A stretch of 23,299 bases of DNA from a virus (lineage: Duplodnaviria; Heunggongvirae; Uroviricota; Caudoviricetes), in the IMG/VR virus record IMGVR_UViG_2740892232_000005. One strand, 5' to 3'. The notes under the pieces are model-generated. The model was not told the DNA's origin. It saw only the letters and a list, made by a program, of their open reading frames with translations, and ran no database searches. Both the position numbers and the translations under genes were made by a program. Each line of letters starts with the position of its first letter. Positions within the stretch are counted from its first letter, which is position 1. This document shows positions 2,586 to 14,102 of this stretch, piece after piece.

Positions 2586-2712
2586 TTTGTTCTCCACGTA
2601 TATGCGCTGCACCGCGCTGAGTTTGGGTAAAAGGAAGCCCTCACCATCCGGTGATTATTGAGTTAATTACGTTTCCATAAATGCCCCCGCAGGGGCATTT
2701 GCAGTAATGAAA

Positions 2713-3602: not shown

Positions 3603-3965
3603 TTAATGACCTGCTGCGCGTAGTTTTCCGTCAGGTTCACCGGCAAGAGTCAGTAATTGTCCCTGGTCTTCCTGCAGAATAGTCAGGCGACCACCGCGAT
3701 TGACATACATCGGCGTTTCGGTGGTGTCTTCTTCGGAAATTTTCCCGCGGTTAGTCGGGCGAACATATGAGAGTTTGTGTTTGATTTTCACACGGTTCTC
3801 ATCAAATGGTTCGATTTCCAGGTTGAGTGAGACCTTACCTTTGGTTTTCGTGTTCATCACACCGGAAGCGACTTCACTGAGAACTGCGCCGATTTTGGTT
3901 TCAAATACGCCGCCGTCCAGCTCCCCGATAAATGCCTGCACATCAGTACTGCGTTCGCTAGCCAT
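3603..3965 (-). CDS. yfdP: YfdP-like protein, 120 aa
   Basis: Track ORF 3603..4196 has an internal ATG at 3965 preceded by GAGGAG; it yields 120 aa (MASERSTDVQAF...), the size of YfdP. The upstream extension runs through a non-coding inverted-repeat region and is rejected. Confidence 0.65.
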   Translation of the reverse strand: MASERSTDVQAFIGELDGGVFETKIGAVLSEVASGVMNTKTKGKVSLNLEIEPFDENRVKIKHKLSYVRPTNRGKISEEDTTETPMYVNRGGRLTILQEDQGQLLTLAGEPDGKLRAAGH

Positions 3966-4566
3966 TTTGCTGCTCCTCATCATATCGACCCTGCAAGGTC
4001 GGTTGGTTTCTCCACAAAACAGAGAAGAACACCTGCGGTGGCAGCCGCCCGGATGGATTGGGTTATGAGCCTGTCGTCCGGTGATGCTCTTCTCTGTTTT
4101 GTAAAAAGAGCGGTACCAGCCGGAAGCAAGTGTACAAACTGGTACCGCCAAAGCAGTGGCTGTTGTGGTGGGGTTGTCACTCAGGCGTATGGTCAACCTG
4201 ACAATCCGGTGTCCTCAACGGGGAAAGAGTAACCCCGCCATACTTACCGCCGCGCCATTTCGCGGATTACCACAACGCTGAGAGCACTTAGCCAGTTACG
4301 GCACCACACTTTGTCGCGGCTCCATAAATGCCCTCATCGTTGCACCCTGGTCTCTTCCCAGGCGTCAAACCGGATCGCCACGCTGGTTAGGCGTCTTATC
4401 AGCATCATCATTGACTTGCACATTCCGGCTACCTGGTTTGTTTGCCCGAGCAAGAAGTGGATTGTCCCCTTTAACGTCCCCAGACCGCTAACGACGCATG
4501 TGCCATACGCCGTGTTACAACCAAATTTTGTTTGAATCTTGCCTGCCTCATGTTTCTTTTGGATAC

Positions 4567-4594
4567 ATTATGTATCTCATGGGTACATTGTCAA
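4567..4594 (-). promoter_or_regulatory. Candidate early-left promoter (PL-like): -35 TTGACA (4594..4589), 16-nt spacer, -10 CATAAT (4572..4567) on the minus strand, overlapping an operator-like palindrome
   Basis: Read directly from the reverse complement; near-consensus sigma70 hexamers; overlaps palindromes 4563-4577 (GATACATTATGTATC) and 4570-4588 (ATGTATCTCATGGGTACAT), the latter resembling the OR sites. Confidence 0.4.
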
Positions 4595-4597
4595 GTA

Positions 4598-4622
4598 TAA
4601 AAAAACCTGCCGAAGCAGGTTC
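4598..4622 (-). terminator. Rho-independent terminator downstream of cI (minus strand)
   Basis: On the minus strand: stem AACCTGC-TTCG-GCAGGTT followed by a T7 run (A-run 4599-4605 on the top strand), immediately 3' of the cI stop at 4634. Confidence 0.6.
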
Positions 4623-4633
4623 ATAAATATTGA

Positions 4634-5308
4634 TTAGGCCTTTATTGTGTATCTTCTTGGTTTTCCCGAGAAAATCACTGTACCAATTATAGAGCAATTA
4701 CCGTTAATCTTAATGTAAGGCTCAGGCCAGTTTGGGTTTAATGCTTTGAGATAACGCTGTGTTCCATCTTCTATCAATCGCTTGAAGGTGGTTTCGCCTG
4801 TATCGTGCATCAATGCAATAACGTCGTCACCGTGGCAGGCAGGGACTTCGGGATCAACAAAAATCATGTCTCCAGGGCGGTACTCATCAATCATTGAATC
4901 ACCAATCACCCGCAAGATATAAGTCATTTCGCCACAGGGTACAGGGCAGGGATACGTTTCTGCTGTGCTCAAATCAACCTCAGAATAGCCAACTTCTTTC
5001 CATGCTCCGGCCTGTACCCATGATATGACAGGGACTAACGTTATTTGTTTGTTAGTGATTGAAACATCAGGTTTTTTTGTGATGTTCGTTGTCTGGTGTT
5101 CTTGATCAAGCCATCCGACAGGCAGGTCGAAACATTTTTCGATGTGCCGTGCCATGCTGTCACCGATATTTTTAGTAGCGCCATCCCCCATAAACCTGCT
5201 GGTTTGGGTTGGCTCGCGATCAATCATGGTGGCAAAGGATGAATTTCCGCCAACACCATCTCTCAGTTTTCTGGCGTTAGACCGCCGGATGTCATGGATT
5301 GTTTTCAT
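4634..5308 (-). CDS. cI: Prophage repressor, CI-like, with N-terminal HTH and C-terminal S24 (LexA-like) autopeptidase domain
   Basis: 224 aa; C-terminal GDSM...K (Ser/Lys dyad) S24 peptidase signature, Ala-Gly (QAGAW) candidate cleavage site, N-terminal phage-CI-type HTH; divergent from the cro-like gene across an operator region. Confidence 0.9.
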   Translation of the reverse strand: MKTIHDIRRSNARKLRDGVGGNSSFATMIDREPTQTSRFMGDGATKNIGDSMARHIEKCFDLPVGWLDQEHQTTNITKKPDVSITNKQITLVPVISWVQAGAWKEVGYSEVDLSTAETYPCPVPCGEMTYILRVIGDSMIDEYRPGDMIFVDPEVPACHGDDVIALMHDTGETTFKRLIEDGTQRYLKALNPNWPEPYIKINGNCSIIGTVIFSGKPRRYTIKA

Positions 5309-5324
5309 AACGAAATTAAAACCT

Positions 5325-5343
5325 TTGTACCGATAAGGTACAA
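5325..5343. promoter_or_regulatory. Operator-like palindrome A (TTGTACC-gataa-GGTACAA) in the cI/cro intergenic region
   Basis: Perfect 7-bp inverted repeat read from the sequence; shares half-site GTAC(C)/GGTAC with sites at 5375-5393 and 4570-4588. Confidence 0.5.
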
Positions 5344-5348
5344 GTATC

Positions 5349-5376
5349 TTGAAGGTTCATTTCAATCATGTAATAT
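5349..5376 (+). promoter_or_regulatory. Candidate PR promoter: -35 TTGAAG (5349-5354), 16-nt spacer, -10 TAATAT (5371-5376)
   Basis: Hexamers read from the sequence upstream of the cro-like start; the -10 overlaps operator B. Confidence 0.35.
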
Positions 5377-5393
5377 GTATACCGGAGGTACAT
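5375..5393. promoter_or_regulatory. Operator-like palindrome B (ATGTATACC-gga-GGTACAT) overlapping the PR -10 and cro RBS
   Basis: Inverted repeat read from the sequence; similar to site A and to the OL-like site at 4570-4588. Confidence 0.5.
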
Positions 5394-5398
5394 ATTGT

Positions 5399-5599
5399 AT
5401 GAAAGCGTATTGGGACTCTTTAACCAAAGAACAGCAGGGCGAGTTGGCCGGAAAAGTTGGCTCAACACCTGGCTACTTACGGCTGGTTTTCAATGGTTAT
5501 AAAAAAGCCAGTTTTGTGCTGGCGAAAAAACTTGAGCAATGCACGTCAGGTGCAATTACGAAATCTGACTTAAGACCGGATATCTATCCGAAAGATTAA
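5399..5599 (+). CDS. cro: Cro-like HTH regulator (66 aa)
   Basis: Internal ATG at 5399 of track ORF 5294..5599, GGAGG RBS upstream; small basic HTH protein divergent from cI; the longer track ORF would overlap the cI start and operators. Confidence 0.75.
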   Translation: MKAYWDSLTKEQQGELAGKVGSTPGYLRLVFNGYKKASFVLAKKLEQCTSGAITKSDLRPDIYPKD

Positions 5600-6194: not shown

Positions 6195-7027
6195 ACAGTT
6201 TAACGGCAAATAACCGTTTGTCGCAACAGCTGGTGGTCAGTGTCGCTGAACACCTGTTGTTACGGCATGAATGCAGATTACCAAATTACCTGGCTGTAAG
6301 TAACCACAGAGAACTTTACCTGACTGTGGGGGGCGAGTTGTGCGGGAACTTAACCGCTGGTTTCGTGACGGAAGAGGGCTTTATGTCCATGTTATTCGTT
6401 GGGAACCAGAAACACAGCGCGTTATCTATCTTCGCAAAGACTACCCGCATGAGTGCTTTAGTCCTTTGTGGAAATTCAGGCGTGATTTTGTTGAGTGTGA
6501 AGGACCACCAGCACATTGATTCTGCCATTCCGGGACGTTACACTGTTCAGGCACCTTATAAAGCGGGTGACGGGATTGGCGTCCTGGAAATGTTATCGGC
6601 GATATATGACGCGCCAGCGTCTTTTTTATCGTCTGCGTCTGTGCACACCCAAATTATGGTGGGCTGGACGGGGGCACCGAAAGGTGCGCCGGTTTCCGAT
6701 AACGCCGGTTACGCCAACCCCGTTCAGTTCACCACCAGCGAAATTGGCGTTTCCGGTGGTGAAGGTAATTCACTGTTATCGGAGGCTGCCATCATGGCTA
6801 CTGTCCCAGCCCTCACTCGTCTGAATGATGAAGACTTACATAAACTCAGTTATGTAACAACTGCACTACGTGCTCTGCGCAAGGTAACTCTTTCGGATCC
6901 GCAGGCGCATCAGGTTTTGGTAGAAACCCTTCTTAACTTGCAGGCTGAACGTATTCGTCTGGCGGATAAGGCTAATTTTCATATTCACCGTCTCCTGAAT
7001 ATCAGCGGAGGGCATCGTCATGCTTAA
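6191..7027 (+). CDS. Hypothetical protein (278 aa), unknown function
   Basis: Long uninterrupted ORF; ATGA start/stop overlap with the upstream gene and ATGCTTAA overlap with the downstream gene indicate translational coupling; no motif recognised. Confidence 0.55.
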   Translation: MNSLTANNRLSQQLVVSVAEHLLLRHECRLPNYLAVSNHRELYLTVGGELCGNLTAGFVTEEGFMSMLFVGNQKHSALSIFAKTTRMSALVLCGNSGVILLSVKDHQHIDSAIPGRYTVQAPYKAGDGIGVLEMLSAIYDAPASFLSSASVHTQIMVGWTGAPKGAPVSDNAGYANPVQFTTSEIGVSGGEGNSLLSEAAIMATVPALTRLNDEDLHKLSYVTTALRALRKVTLSDPQAHQVLVETLLNLQAERIRLADKANFHIHRLLNISGGHRHA

Positions 7028-13306: not shown

Positions 13307-13605
13307 AAAATTCCTTAATACTGATAACTTGGCGCACTATACACACGTTCCTGAAGAAAGCTATAGTTTTTTGATGGGGTTGAAGATGGCTGGATGTCTA
13401 AAATAAACATTGCTTCATATGTTCAACTATGCGTTAATGATTGCGTCGGTTTGAAGAACAGACGATATACGAAGTAGTTTACTAAAGCAGTTCTCATTTC
13501 AGGTGTTATTCACTTATTCCTTCTTTGAGTCTCTCCAATTAAGTACGAAGTCGTTTCTGTTATACAAGCCATTTATGCCGAAAGGCTCAAGTTAAGGAAT
13601 GTAGA

Positions 13606-13821
13606 ATGTCAAATAAAATGACTGGTTTAGTAAAATGGTTTAACGCTGATAAAGGTTTTGGCTTTATTTCTCCTGTTGATGGTAGTAAAGATGTGTTTGT
13701 GCATTTTTCTGCGATTCAGAATGATAATTATCGAACCTTATTTGAAGGTCAAAAGGTTACCTTCTCTGTAGAGAGTGGTGCTAAAGGTCCTGCAGCAGCA
13801 AATGTCATAATTACTGATTAA
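13606..13821 (+). CDS. cspB: Cold-shock protein, CspB/CspG/CspI type (71 aa)
   Basis: [38 protein letters not shown] with RNP1/RNP2 motifs; AAGGA RBS; long upstream leader typical of csp genes. Confidence 0.92.
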
Positions 13822-14102
13822 AATTCATAGTTTGTCTGTATACGATAACGAAGAAGGCTGATGCCTGAGTGGAGATACAGACAGAGTGGTGAATATTGGA
13901 TCTCTTTAATAAATAGTAAGGAGGTCCAATACATGAAACAATGGCCAGCATATTTGGCAATAACTTAATCAGGAAAAGTATGCTAACCATTGTGGTGAAG
14001 TGCAGGTTTGCTGCATGAATAGTTTTACAGCAGAAGCTAACTGCTGGCATAGCAAAACAAAGTGCGTAAGTGGATGACTCCCACAAAAAGTACCACAATA
14101 TT

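What the first reader, a model, noticed from the sequence alone, without database searches (positions are those of the whole stretch)
3966..4633. Long structured non-coding leader between the PL-like promoter and the first leftward gene; no N-like gene
Seen: about 600 nt between the cI terminator/PL-like promoter (4567-4622) and the yfdP-like start (3965) contain no plausible ORF of 60 aa or more on the transcribed minus strand, but do contain several inverted repeats (4014-4030 with 4088-4104; 4113-4121 with 4138-4146; 4250-4263). On the minus strand the GGTACCAG...CTGGTACC hairpin is followed by a T-rich tract and looks like a terminator. Established: lambda-type early operons need N plus nut sites, while HK022 uses cis-acting put RNAs instead of N. 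Inference: this leader may carry a put-like RNA, an attenuator controlling the yfd-xis-int operon, or an sRNA.
Basis: partly seen in the sequence, partly recalled or inferred. Interest (0 to 1): 0.5.

Follow-up and report, generated by a model that had tools for sequence, protein, structure and literature searches.

The report
Mosaic structured RNA leader of prophage
The 600-base gap between the prophage repressor gene and the first leftward gene encodes no protein; it is a string of conserved, exchangeable structured RNA modules related to the DicF small-RNA locus, and two of them are widespread in E. coli phages but unannotated.

Summary
Promoter, repressor terminator, three inverted repeats and a terminator-like hairpin are at the stated coordinates, and no conserved ORF or N-like gene is present.

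The leader is a mosaic of RNA modules on the minus strand:
- M (4523-4339), a 185-nt multi-hairpin RNA.
- U (4276-4162), a pseudoknotted, cloverleaf-shaped RNA closed by an 8-bp stem.
- A DicF-type intrinsic terminator (4149-4103) that lacks the DicF seed.
- A 20-25-bp stem, S2:S3 (4102-4078 with 4038-4012), ahead of the yfdP ribosome-binding site.

Covariation supports M, U and S2:S3. Rfam 15 matches neither M nor U.

U is the 5' domain of the 190-nt DicF species of the K-12 Qin prophage and also lies in the phage P1 ban leader. In related phages a tRNA-Arg or an unrelated segment fills the same stem-closed slot. In mEp460-type prophages, slot plus terminator measures 193 nt, the length of the published sRNA-17. 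Replacing sRNA-17 with a resistance cassette raised yfdP about 95-fold.

Most likely the window yields a 174-nt stable RNA (4276-4103), and the terminator attenuates yfdP-int expression. Sequence comparison does not support homology to put RNA; a put-like function remains an open hypothesis.

The parts
4603..4622 (-). Intrinsic terminator of the repressor gene (ymfK / cI-like, 4634-5308)
   Evidence: Terminator scan: 8-bp stem, 4-nt loop, U-run. Annotated as a terminator in phage Ayreon.
4567..4594 (-). PL-like sigma-70 promoter (-35 TTGACA 4594-4589, -10 CATAAT 4572-4567); start of the leftward transcript inferred near 4560
   Evidence: 11 of 12 consensus matches. Annotated as a promoter in phage Ayreon. 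The start site is inferred, not mapped.
4339..4523 (-). Module M: conserved multi-hairpin RNA of about 185 nt. Helices: H1 4512-4504/4500-4492; H2 4487-4480/4436-4426; H4 4394-4391/4383-4380; H5 4362-4358/4350-4346
   Evidence: nhmmer 135 bits. 121 distinct relatives in IMG/VR and other loci. On alignment A5, 96% of cells are paired against 30-42% in slid controls, 11 pairs change on both sides, 0 of 500 shuffles reach this. No Rfam match. Present in 1331 of 5426 E. coli genomes and never annotated.
4327..4338 (-). M3' segment (GAUGAGGGCAUU), complementary to S1
   Evidence: Duplex of -13.9 kcal/mol with S1, and paired with S1 in the minimum-energy fold of the whole leader. 55 of 58 M copies that carry this motif are followed by a GCUCU(C/U) motif; background is 3.5%. 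These copies are closely related, so this is weak independent evidence.
4269..4289 (-). S1 (AAGUGCUCUCAGC + GUUGUGGU): the leader of the slot. Its last 8 nt are the 5' strand of stem P1
   Evidence: The same S1 precedes a tRNA-Arg in L004 and in a Klebsiella phage.
4162..4276 (-). Module U: pseudoknotted, cloverleaf-shaped RNA. P1 4276-4269/4169-4162; P2 4265-4261/4254-4250; PA 4249-4246/4210-4207; pseudoknot 4243-4238/4192-4187; P4 4237-4233/4223-4219; P5 4206-4199/4179-4172
   Evidence: nhmmer 139 bits, single copy in the window. On alignment A3 of 31 diverse sequences, 96.2% of cells are paired against 26-55% in slid controls, 14 pairs change on both sides, 0 of 500 shuffles reach this. About 93% identical to the segment 5' of dicF in Qin. 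No Rfam match.
4103..4149 (-). DicF-type Rho-independent terminator hairpin (GGCGGUACCAG / CUGGUACCGC, then UCUUUUU). It lacks the DicF 5' seed and has a different loop
   Evidence: Fold at -21.2 kcal/mol, z = -4.3. Aligns with the base of the DicF hairpin. Identical to the 3' end of the published sRNA-17.
4103..4276 (-). Predicted stable RNA of 174 nt (U plus terminator), the positional equivalent of the 190-nt DicF species and of the 193-nt sRNA-17
   Evidence: Distance from the first base of P1 to the terminator U-tract is 189 nt in Qin, 193 nt in mEp460 and 174 nt here. Published sizes are 190 nt (PMC10448788) and 193 nt (PMC7719688). This is inferred for the window, not measured.
4078..4102 (-). 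S2: 5' arm of the long stem, immediately after the terminator U-tract. Also partly complementary to S1
4012..4038 (-). S3: 3' arm of the long stem, followed by UUUUGUGG and the yfdP ribosome-binding region
   Evidence: S2:S3 duplex of -34.5 kcal/mol. 20 pairs are 96.7% paired across 15 sequences from five genera or sources, against 38-61% in slid controls; two pairs covary (AU/CG x5; GC/AU/UA x3).
3966..4003 (-). Small hairpin (CGACCUUGCAGGGUCG, 4003-3984) and the yfdP Shine-Dalgarno sequence GAGGAG (3978-3973), ahead of the ATG at 3965

Best explanation
The stretch is the untranslated 5' part of the repressor-controlled leftward early transcript. It is assembled from mobile RNA modules in this order: promoter, M, S1, a stem-closed slot that here holds U, a DicF-type terminator hairpin, the S2:S3 stem, then the yfdP ribosome-binding site.

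By homology with two studied loci (shown there, inferred here), many transcripts end at the hairpin terminator. The piece from the base of stem P1 to the terminator (4276-4103, 174 nt) accumulates as a stable RNA. Its 5' end arises by cleavage at the base of P1. In Qin that cleavage depends on RNase III. The stem also looks like a tRNA acceptor stem, so RNase P is a second candidate.

The terminator, and probably the S2:S3 stem, hold down expression of yfdP, yfdQ, yfdR, xis and int unless polymerase reads through.

Four mutually complementary segments offer alternative pairings that could set the level of read-through or translation: M3', S1, S2 and S3, pairing as 1:2, 2:3 or 3:4. This step is inferred from sequence only.

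What U and M bind or sense is unknown. U behaves as an exchangeable, tRNA-shaped cargo of the slot. M is usually promoter-proximal or next to a tRNA gene.
For: Homology to Qin:
- Window 4170-4285 is about 93% identical to the Qin segment directly 5' of dicF, and the hairpin base aligns with DicF.
- The 190-nt DicF species requires RNase III, and the 53-nt form requires RNase E (PMC10448788).
- The distance from the base of P1 to the U-tract is 189 nt in Qin.

Homology to sRNA-17:
- The mEp460 leader is identical to the window in M, S1, both P1 strands, the hairpin, S2, S3 and the yfdP ribosome-binding site. Only the slot content differs.
- There the distance from the base of P1 to the fourth U of the terminator U-tract is exactly 193 nt, the size of sRNA-17 mapped by RACE and Northern blot.
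- Replacing sRNA-17 by a cassette raised yfdP by log2 6.6, and also raised yfdR.

Structure:
- U: 96.2% of cells paired, 14 covarying pairs, including the one variable pair of the pseudoknot and of helix PA.
- M: 96% paired, 11 covarying pairs.
- S2:S3: 96.7% paired.

Exchangeable slot: U (window, Qin, P1), segment X (mEp460) or tRNA-Arg, all with the same S1 leader and a GGCGG...CCGCCCUUUUU terminator after it.

Non-coding.

Alternative pairings. In relatives without a terminator cassette, S1 plus the 5' strand of P1 pairs contiguously with the 3' strand of P1 plus S2.
Against: - No transcript data exist for this window.
- The rise in yfdP in the sRNA-17 mutant could come from the promoter of the inserted resistance cassette rather than from loss of a terminator.
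- The sRNA-17 authors interpret its 5' end as a transcription start under ArcA control, not as a processing site.
- The S1:S2 pairing is weak in the window (-12.3 kcal/mol). An energy-only test against shuffled S1 was not significant in any class.
- The U-tract after S2:S3 is short (UUUU) and is not conserved in the Erwinia-type relatives, so a second terminator there is doubtful.
- Most relatives are closely related. The search patterns fixed parts of U and M, so invariance in those blocks is by construction.
- Hairpin P4 of U forms in 62 of 65 distinct sequences but is no better than composition-matched shuffles.
Confidence: 0.6

Rival explanations
1. M and/or U is a cis-acting processive antiterminator RNA. 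It would work like HK022 put, without being homologous to it: it modifies RNA polymerase so that it reads through the DicF-type hairpin and later terminators. This would stand in for N in these N-less phages and in the P1 ban operon.
For: - No N-like gene is present.
- At least one strong intrinsic terminator lies before the first gene, and a hairpin that the Ayreon record annotates as a terminator lies between yfdQ and yfdR.
- M starts 10-35 nt after promoter-like sequences in several phages, judged by eye. In mEp460 and mEp390 it sits just after the repressor gene, where putL sits in HK022.
- In P1, U begins about 45 nt after the repressor-controlled ban promoter and is followed by a terminator-like hairpin.
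- A Klebsiella phage has M, then tRNA-Arg, then two terminator-like hairpins before the next gene.
- M hairpin H1 shares the words CGGCG...CAUGCGUCG..AGCG with put stem I.
Against: - Profiles of M and U find no significant match in the HK022 or HK639 put regions (E 0.2-10).
- The architecture differs from put.
- There is only one copy of each module in the window and none in the rightward operon.
- In P1, M lies 2-3 kb from the promoter, just before ban.
- RNAs that end at the terminator accumulate in Qin and in RS218, so termination is efficient at least in lysogens.
Confidence: 0.15
2. The leader is a riboswitch-like or factor-sensing attenuator. U is a sensor domain whose closing stem (S1 and P1 with S2) competes with M3':S1 and with S2:S3. 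Binding of a ligand, protein or tRNA-related factor to U would decide whether yfdP-int is expressed.
For: - Loops and junctions of U are highly conserved around a pseudoknot, for example GGUUGACCAUACGCCUGAG and AAAUGGCGCGGCGGUAAG, as in riboswitch sensor domains.
- The four segments form mutually exclusive pairings. The minimum-energy fold uses 1:2 plus 3:4, and the alternative 2:3 closes U.
- Relatives without the terminator cassette still keep U, S2 and S3.
Against: - The slot can hold an unrelated segment X or a real tRNA with the same flanks, so the flanking switch does not depend on U.
- S1:S2 is weak in the window.
- In Qin, U lies about 950 nt into the operon, after three ORFs.
- No candidate ligand is known.
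Confidence: 0.12
3. The main product is a trans-acting regulatory RNA. This could be an Hfq-type small RNA or a sponge, such as an anti-GcvB RNA acting through the CACAACA motif, or a regulator acting through the hairpin loop. Effects on yfdP would then be secondary.
For: - DicF at the homologous position is a trans-acting Hfq small RNA (PMC5069750; PMC10448788).
- The sRNA-17 mutant changed 48 host transcripts and altered growth in blood.
- The sequence between U and the hairpin contains CACAACA (4168-4162), the published consensus target of the GcvB R1 seed (PMC4104026).
- Different phages carry different cassettes at this position, each ending in a terminator. This is the pattern expected for variable seed regions.
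Against: - The DicF seed is absent, and the Rfam DicF model gives no match even at E up to 10.
- CACAAC is the base-paired 3' strand of P1 and is conserved for structure.
- No direct target of sRNA-17 has been shown.
- This reading does not exclude the best explanation; it adds to it.
Confidence: 0.1
4. The region encodes one or more small proteins, for example the 66-aa, 39-aa or 26-aa ORFs, the last being arginine-rich.
For: - ORFs exist on the minus strand.
- Some phage records annotate hypothetical proteins here.
- In Erwinia-type relatives an AGGAG sequence and an ATG lie inside a longer terminator hairpin.
Against: - Frames are broken by stops or frameshifts among homologues.
- The 39-aa and 26-aa frames are intact in only 5 of 26 and 6 of 26 homologues.
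- No Pfam family matches.
- The substitutions that do occur preserve RNA base pairs.
Confidence: 0.03

Closest known systems
dicF locus of the Qin prophage (E. coli K-12): the 190-nt and 53-nt DicF RNAs of the dicBF operon
   Same: - Same position in a repressor-controlled leftward early operon.
- Same U element, about 93% identical, directly 5' of a GGCGG...CCGCC(C)UUUUU terminator hairpin.
- The distance from the base of P1 to the U-tract (189 nt) matches the known 190-nt species.

   Different: - The 19 nt that carry the DicF seed and its RNase E site are absent.
- The hairpin loop differs.
- The Rfam DicF model does not match.
- In the window the element lies in a leader without ORFs, not after ydfABC. 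yfdP follows it, not dicB.
sRNA-17 of E. coli K1 RS218 and phage mEp460 (Front Microbiol 2020, PMC7719688)
   Same: Identical M, S1, P1 strands, terminator hairpin, S2:S3 stem and downstream yfdP. A strain with a 99.9%-identical copy of this region (CP023364) appears in the paper's alignment of shortened ('degenerative') sRNA-17 copies.
   Different: The roughly 115-nt body of sRNA-17 (segment X) is replaced here by the unrelated element U. The repressor and promoter also differ. The paper did not note the relation to DicF, the flanking modules or the slot architecture.
'dicF-like region' in the ban operon leader of phage P1 (misc_feature 68791-68892 of NC_005856)
   Same: - U is present about 45 nt after the C1-controlled ban promoter.
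- Its compensatory changes support the same fold.
- It is followed by a terminator-like hairpin.
- M is also in this operon, directly after trnI and before ban.

   Different: The order is U...tRNAs...M rather than M-U, and the closing stem and terminator sequences differ. The P1 annotation covers only the 3' half of U.
HK022 and HK639 put antiterminator RNAs
   Same: - A non-coding structured RNA just downstream of PL in a lambdoid phage that lacks N.
- Terminators lie downstream of it.
- M hairpin H1 and put stem I share a few short words.

   Different: - No significant sequence similarity.
- put is about 70 nt with two stems. M has at least five helices in about 185 nt, and U is a pseudoknotted four-way junction.
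- There is no second copy in the rightward operon.
Phage lambda N / nut antitermination
   Same: Same place in the genome map: between the PL promoter and the first leftward genes.
   Different: There is no N-like ORF or Pfam match. Only weak boxA-like strings are present: S1 UGCUCUCAG and S3 UGUUCUUCU, against the consensus UGCUCUUUA recalled from the literature. No boxB was identified.
tRNA genes in phage early or moron transcription units
   Same: - U occupies exactly the position of a tRNA-Arg behind the same S1 leader and ahead of the same kind of terminator.
- The 5' strand of P1 overlaps the tRNA acceptor strand (GUGG).
- U has four arms in cloverleaf order.
   Different: ARAGORN and the Rfam tRNA model do not detect it. 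The arms are longer, there is an internal-loop to hairpin-loop pseudoknot, and there is no anticodon loop or conserved CCA.

Membership tests
DicF RNA (Rfam RF00039) | Match to the covariance model at or above the gathering score (48 bits) | tested here: not met
   No DicF match in window 3800-4750 even at E up to 10. The same model gives 76.7 bits in Qin.
DicF RNA (Rfam RF00039) | 5' single-stranded seed UUUCUGGUGACG | tested here: not met
   The alignment with Qin shows a 19-nt gap covering the seed.
DicF RNA (Rfam RF00039) | Rho-independent terminator hairpin GGCGG...CCGCC followed by a U-run, in a leftward early operon | tested here: met
   Context.
Long (190-nt) DicF precursor / sRNA-17 type RNA | Stem-closed 5' domain followed by the terminator, with published RNA ends at the base of the stem and at the U-tract | tested here: met
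   Geometry is 189 nt in Qin, 193 nt in mEp460 and 174 nt in the window. The flanks are identical to mEp460. The RNA ends themselves were not measured for this window.
sRNA-17 (PMC7719688) | Full 193-nt sequence | tested here: not met
   Only the last 80 nt or so and the 8-nt 5' stem strand are shared. The body is replaced by U. This corresponds to the authors' 'degenerative' class.
HK022-type put RNA | Sequence or profile similarity to putL/putR | tested here: not met
   nhmmer with the M and U profiles against the HK022 and HK639 immunity regions: best E-values 0.2-10, and no hit aligns across a put element.
HK022-type put RNA | Two-stem fold of about 70 nt, with copies downstream of both PL and PR | tested here: not met
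   Different folds. Single copies, none in the rightward operon.
HK022-type put RNA | Protein-independent suppression of terminators, dependent on the beta' zinc-binding domain | not testable with these tools
   Needs read-through assays in rpoC mutants.
Lambda N / nut system | N protein with an arginine-rich motif encoded just downstream of PL | tested here: not met
   No Pfam match for any ORF of the leader or of the left operon. The small ORFs are not conserved.
Lambda N / nut system | boxA followed by a boxB hairpin | tested here: inconclusive
   S1 and S3 resemble boxA in 6 of 9 positions in the window and in 8 of 9 in some relatives. These same segments are explained by base pairing, and no boxB was identified.
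tRNA | Detected by ARAGORN or the Rfam tRNA model | tested here: not met
   No tRNA genes in the window. No tRNA match at E up to 10.
tRNA-like element | Four-arm cloverleaf topology, in the genomic slot of a tRNA | tested here: met
   Helices P1, P2, PA/P4 and P5 lie in cloverleaf order. tRNA-Arg occupies the same slot behind the same S1 leader.
Transcription attenuator / riboswitch | Mutually exclusive helices, one of which is a terminator | tested here: inconclusive
   The alternative pairings M3':S1, S1:S2 and S2:S3 exist. S1:S2 is weak, and S2:S3 is not followed by a conserved U-tract.

The most novel reading that the evidence does not exclude
M and U are two previously undescribed families of structured phage RNA that act on the transcription or processing machinery. 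For example, M could be a put-analogous antiterminator that licenses read-through in N-less lambdoid phages and in the P1 ban operon. U could be a tRNA-shaped module that recruits RNase P, RNase III or RNase E, or a host factor, to release and control a family of interchangeable terminator-linked small RNAs (DicF, sRNA-17 and others).
Probability: 0.2. Interest if true: 0.85.

Novelty: new variant of a known kind. Interest (0 to 1): 0.6.

Why it matters
- DicF is one of the oldest known bacterial small RNAs, yet the 137-nt 5' part of its long form has had no described structure or role. This analysis shows it to be a conserved pseudoknotted RNA. It is shared by most E. coli genomes (matches in 4759 of 5426, mostly through this segment), by phage P1 and by phages of several genera, and it is exchangeable with a tRNA.
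- A second module, M, occurs in about a quarter of complete E. coli genomes and in P1-, epsilon15- and lambda-like phages. It carries no annotation.
- The modular slot architecture links three observations that were previously separate: DicF, sRNA-17 and the P1 'dicF-like region'.
- It also gives a concrete, testable handle on how lambdoid phages without N control their early leftward operon.

Tried and rejected
- **Coding.** All ORFs of 20 aa or more were listed. Frames were compared across genera and across 26 M homologues, and scanned against Pfam. Rejected.
- **Known RNA families.** Rfam at gathering score over the whole window and at E up to 10 over 3800-4750 gave nothing for M, U or the hairpin.
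- **tRNA or tmRNA.** ARAGORN found none.
- **Homology to put.** nhmmer with three profiles against HK022 and HK639 gave no significant match. The paper on further put-like RNAs (King 2011, PMC3187212) is not held.
- **AgvB / AsxR anti-sRNAs.** These lie at a different locus, downstream of PR'.
- **Energy test for S1:S2.** Tested against shuffled S1; not significant.
- **Energy test for hairpin P4 of U.** No better than shuffles.
- **Automatic terminator finder.** My own script over all U loci was too strict and was discarded. Terminators were judged from the sequences instead.
- **boxA reading of S1 and S3.** Kept only as a weak lead.
- **RS218 genome record.** Not in the collection; phage mEp460 was used instead.
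Full report
**Context.** The window is a lambdoid prophage of E. coli. Identical DNA is found in many chromosomes. RefSeq annotates a LexA-family repressor (ymfK, 4634-5308, minus strand), a divergent cro-like gene, and leftward yfdP (3603-3965), yfdQ and yfdR, followed by integrase. Nothing is annotated between yfdP and the repressor gene. Pfam confirms the repressor (Peptidase_S24), yfdQ (DUF2303) and an HD-domain yfdR. It finds no N-like family in any ORF of the left operon or the leader.

**Checking the observation.**
- The promoter is TTGACA-16-CATAAT at 4594..4567, and the repressor terminator is at 4622-4603.
- The inverted-repeat search returns 4014-4038/4078-4102 (25 nt, 84%), 4110-4119/4139-4148 (10 nt, 100%) and a further pair, 4162-4169/4269-4276.
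- The GGCGGUACCAG...CUGGUACCGC hairpin followed by UCUUUUU folds at -21.2 kcal/mol, with z = -4.3.
- A 66-aa GTG ORF does exist on the minus strand. Its frame is interrupted by stops or shifted in Erwinia, Izhakiella and Trabulsiella relatives.
- The 39-aa and 26-aa ORFs are intact in only 5 and 6 of 26 homologues.

**Link to DicF.** The 668-nt region matches 4759 of 5426 complete E. coli genomes, mostly through query positions 205-311. In a K-12-like genome that match lies between ydfC and dicB of the Qin prophage. It sits 26 nt upstream of DicF, which Rfam locates there at 76.7 bits. The pairwise alignment shows three things:
- About 125 nt are near-identical.
- A 19-nt gap then removes the DicF seed.
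- Homology resumes at UUUGGCGGUA(U/C)CAGUUU and at CCGC(C/U)CUUUUU.

The Rfam DicF model does not match the window even at E up to 10. The window therefore has the DicF locus architecture with a different small-RNA cassette.

**Element U.** The conserved 5' segment also occurs in other phages:
- an Actinobacillus phage and a Salmonella phage;
- several lambdoid phages, upstream of kil, dicB or exo.

Pattern scans of genome, viral and metagenome collections added Citrobacter, Erwinia, Izhakiella, Trabulsiella and metagenomic copies. On 31 diverse sequences I tested a structure with a closing stem P1, hairpin P2, helix PA, helix P5 and a pseudoknot between GUAUGG and CCAUAC. Results:
- 96.2% of cells are paired, against 26-55% when partners are slid.
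- 14 pairs change on both sides; 0 of 500 shuffles reach this.
- P5 covaries at 6 of 8 pairs, for example GGAUCACCA/UGGUGAUCC and GGGUAACCA/UGGUUACCC.

One caveat applies. The scans fixed parts of the sequence, so invariance there is by construction. The free positions (66-107 and 70-129) nevertheless covary. Hairpin P4 forms in 62 of 65 distinct sequences but is no better than shuffles. The window holds one copy of U.

**The slot.**
- In relatives without a terminator cassette, S1 plus the 5' strand of P1 pairs contiguously with the 3' strand of P1 plus S2. The small-RNA/terminator cassette therefore looks like an insertion into a long closing stem.
- In an E. coli prophage and a Klebsiella phage, the same S1 leader (AAGUGCUCUCAGCGUUGUGG) runs straight into a tRNA-Arg. 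Its acceptor strand overlaps GUGG, and a GGCGG...CCGCCCUUUUU terminator follows.
- In phage mEp460 the leader is identical to the window except that an unrelated segment of about 115 nt replaces U between the same P1 strands.
- U has four arms in cloverleaf order. ARAGORN and the Rfam tRNA model do not detect it.

**Experimental anchors.**
- In Qin, a 190-nt DicF species requires RNase III and the 53-nt form requires RNase E. Transcripts either end at the DicF terminator or read through it (PMC10448788).
- In E. coli K1 RS218, which carries an mEp460-like prophage, a 193-nt 'sRNA-17' was mapped by RACE and Northern blot. Replacing it with a cassette raised yfdP by log2 6.6, and also raised yfdR (PMC7719688).
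- The alignment in that paper shows that sRNA-17 starts at GUUGUGG and ends at the window's hairpin.
- I measured the distance from the first base of P1 to the terminator U-tract: 189 nt in Qin, 193 nt in mEp460 and 174 nt in the window (4276-4103). Both published RNAs are therefore 'slot plus terminator'.

**Module M.** The upstream half of the leader is a second conserved RNA. It matches:
- P1, directly after trnI and before ban;
- epsilon15-like phages;
- Klebsiella and Enterobacter phages;
- mEp390.

A scan gave 121 distinct copies. A five-helix structure is 96% paired, against 30-42% in slid controls, with 11 pairs changed on both sides. M occurs in 1331 of 5426 E. coli genomes and is never annotated. 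In 145 dereplicated loci, M is followed within 160 nt by U in 32, by tRNA-Arg in 25 and by something else in 88.

**Downstream stem and alternative pairings.** The 20-bp S2:S3 helix is 96.7% paired across 15 sequences, with two covarying pairs, and has a duplex energy of -34.5 kcal/mol. M3' (4338-4327) and S2 are both complementary to S1. The minimum-energy fold of the whole leader pairs M3' with S1 and S2 with S3; the alternative, S1 with S2, closes U. This scheme is inferred. S1:S2 is weak in the window, and the energy test was not significant.

**Comparison with put.** putL and putR of HK022, and the annotated putL-like RNA of HK639, were read and searched with the M and U profiles. No hit was significant. 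Only short words are shared between M hairpin H1 and put stem I. A put-like function is not excluded. The phage lacks N, terminators lie downstream, and M is often promoter-proximal.

**Verdict.** The leader is a mosaic of structured RNA modules homologous to the DicF and sRNA-17 loci. The best-supported reading is a terminated and processed stable RNA of about 174 nt, plus attenuation of the yfdP-int operon. The roles of M and U are unknown and worth testing.

Noticed in passing
window 6551-6627 and 6652-6739 (+): Rfam finds an isrK-like RNA (55.4 bits) directly followed by a C4 antisense RNA (82.8 bits). They lie in the rightward region, next to DUF4222 and ash-family genes. This resembles the P1 immI / Gifsy-1 IsrK type of antirepressor control module.
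   Followed up: no
window 13445-13884 (+): A full-length match to the cspA thermoregulator (156.7 bits). This is a phage-borne cold-shock gene with its structured 5' UTR.
   Followed up: no
L009 (Actinobacillus phage vB_Apl-pPE4), about 2600-2760: The small-RNA/terminator cassette after U is tandemly duplicated, together with the 3' strand of stem P1 (CCCCGCCACAACAACCCAUGUUGAUUACC...). This fits cassette gain by duplication or insertion at that strand.
   Followed up: no
window 4162-4168 (-): The 3' strand of P1 plus the next base reads CACAACA, the published consensus target of the GcvB R1 seed that the anti-sRNA AgvB uses (PMC4104026). This may be coincidental, because the bases are paired in U.
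   Followed up: partly
L205, L263, L275, L325 (metagenome and viral contigs): This class has U with no terminator cassette. The roughly 100-nt loop between S2 and S3 contains CGCGGCGUAAGGUGG, which resembles the GCGCGGCGGUAAGUAUGG block of U.
   Followed up: no
L010, L025, L027, L028, L194 (Salmonella phage F1055, Trabulsiella, Erwinia, Izhakiella, a metagenome contig): Their terminator hairpin after U is longer. It carries a Shine-Dalgarno-like AGGAG in the loop and an ATG or GTG in the 3' arm, but the downstream frame is not conserved. The pyrimidine-rich P4 loop of U (UCCUU/CCUCC) could pair with such purine runs.
   Followed up: partly
window 2670-2700 (-), between yfdQ and yfdR: A GC-rich 9-bp hairpin, AAAUGCCCC-UGCG-GGGGCAUUU. 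The homologous Ayreon record annotates it as a terminator. It would be a further barrier inside the left operon.
   Followed up: partly
L006 (phage P1) 4772-4956; L380 1501-1800: M is repeatedly found next to tRNA genes. It lies one base after trnI in P1, and about 60 nt before tRNA-Arg in epsilon15-like and Klebsiella phages.
   Followed up: partly
window 4563-4575 and 5330-5400: AT-rich palindromes of the form ATACATTATGTAT / GGTACA...TGTAT overlap the PL-like promoter and recur near the divergent repressor/cro promoters. They are probably operators.
   Followed up: no
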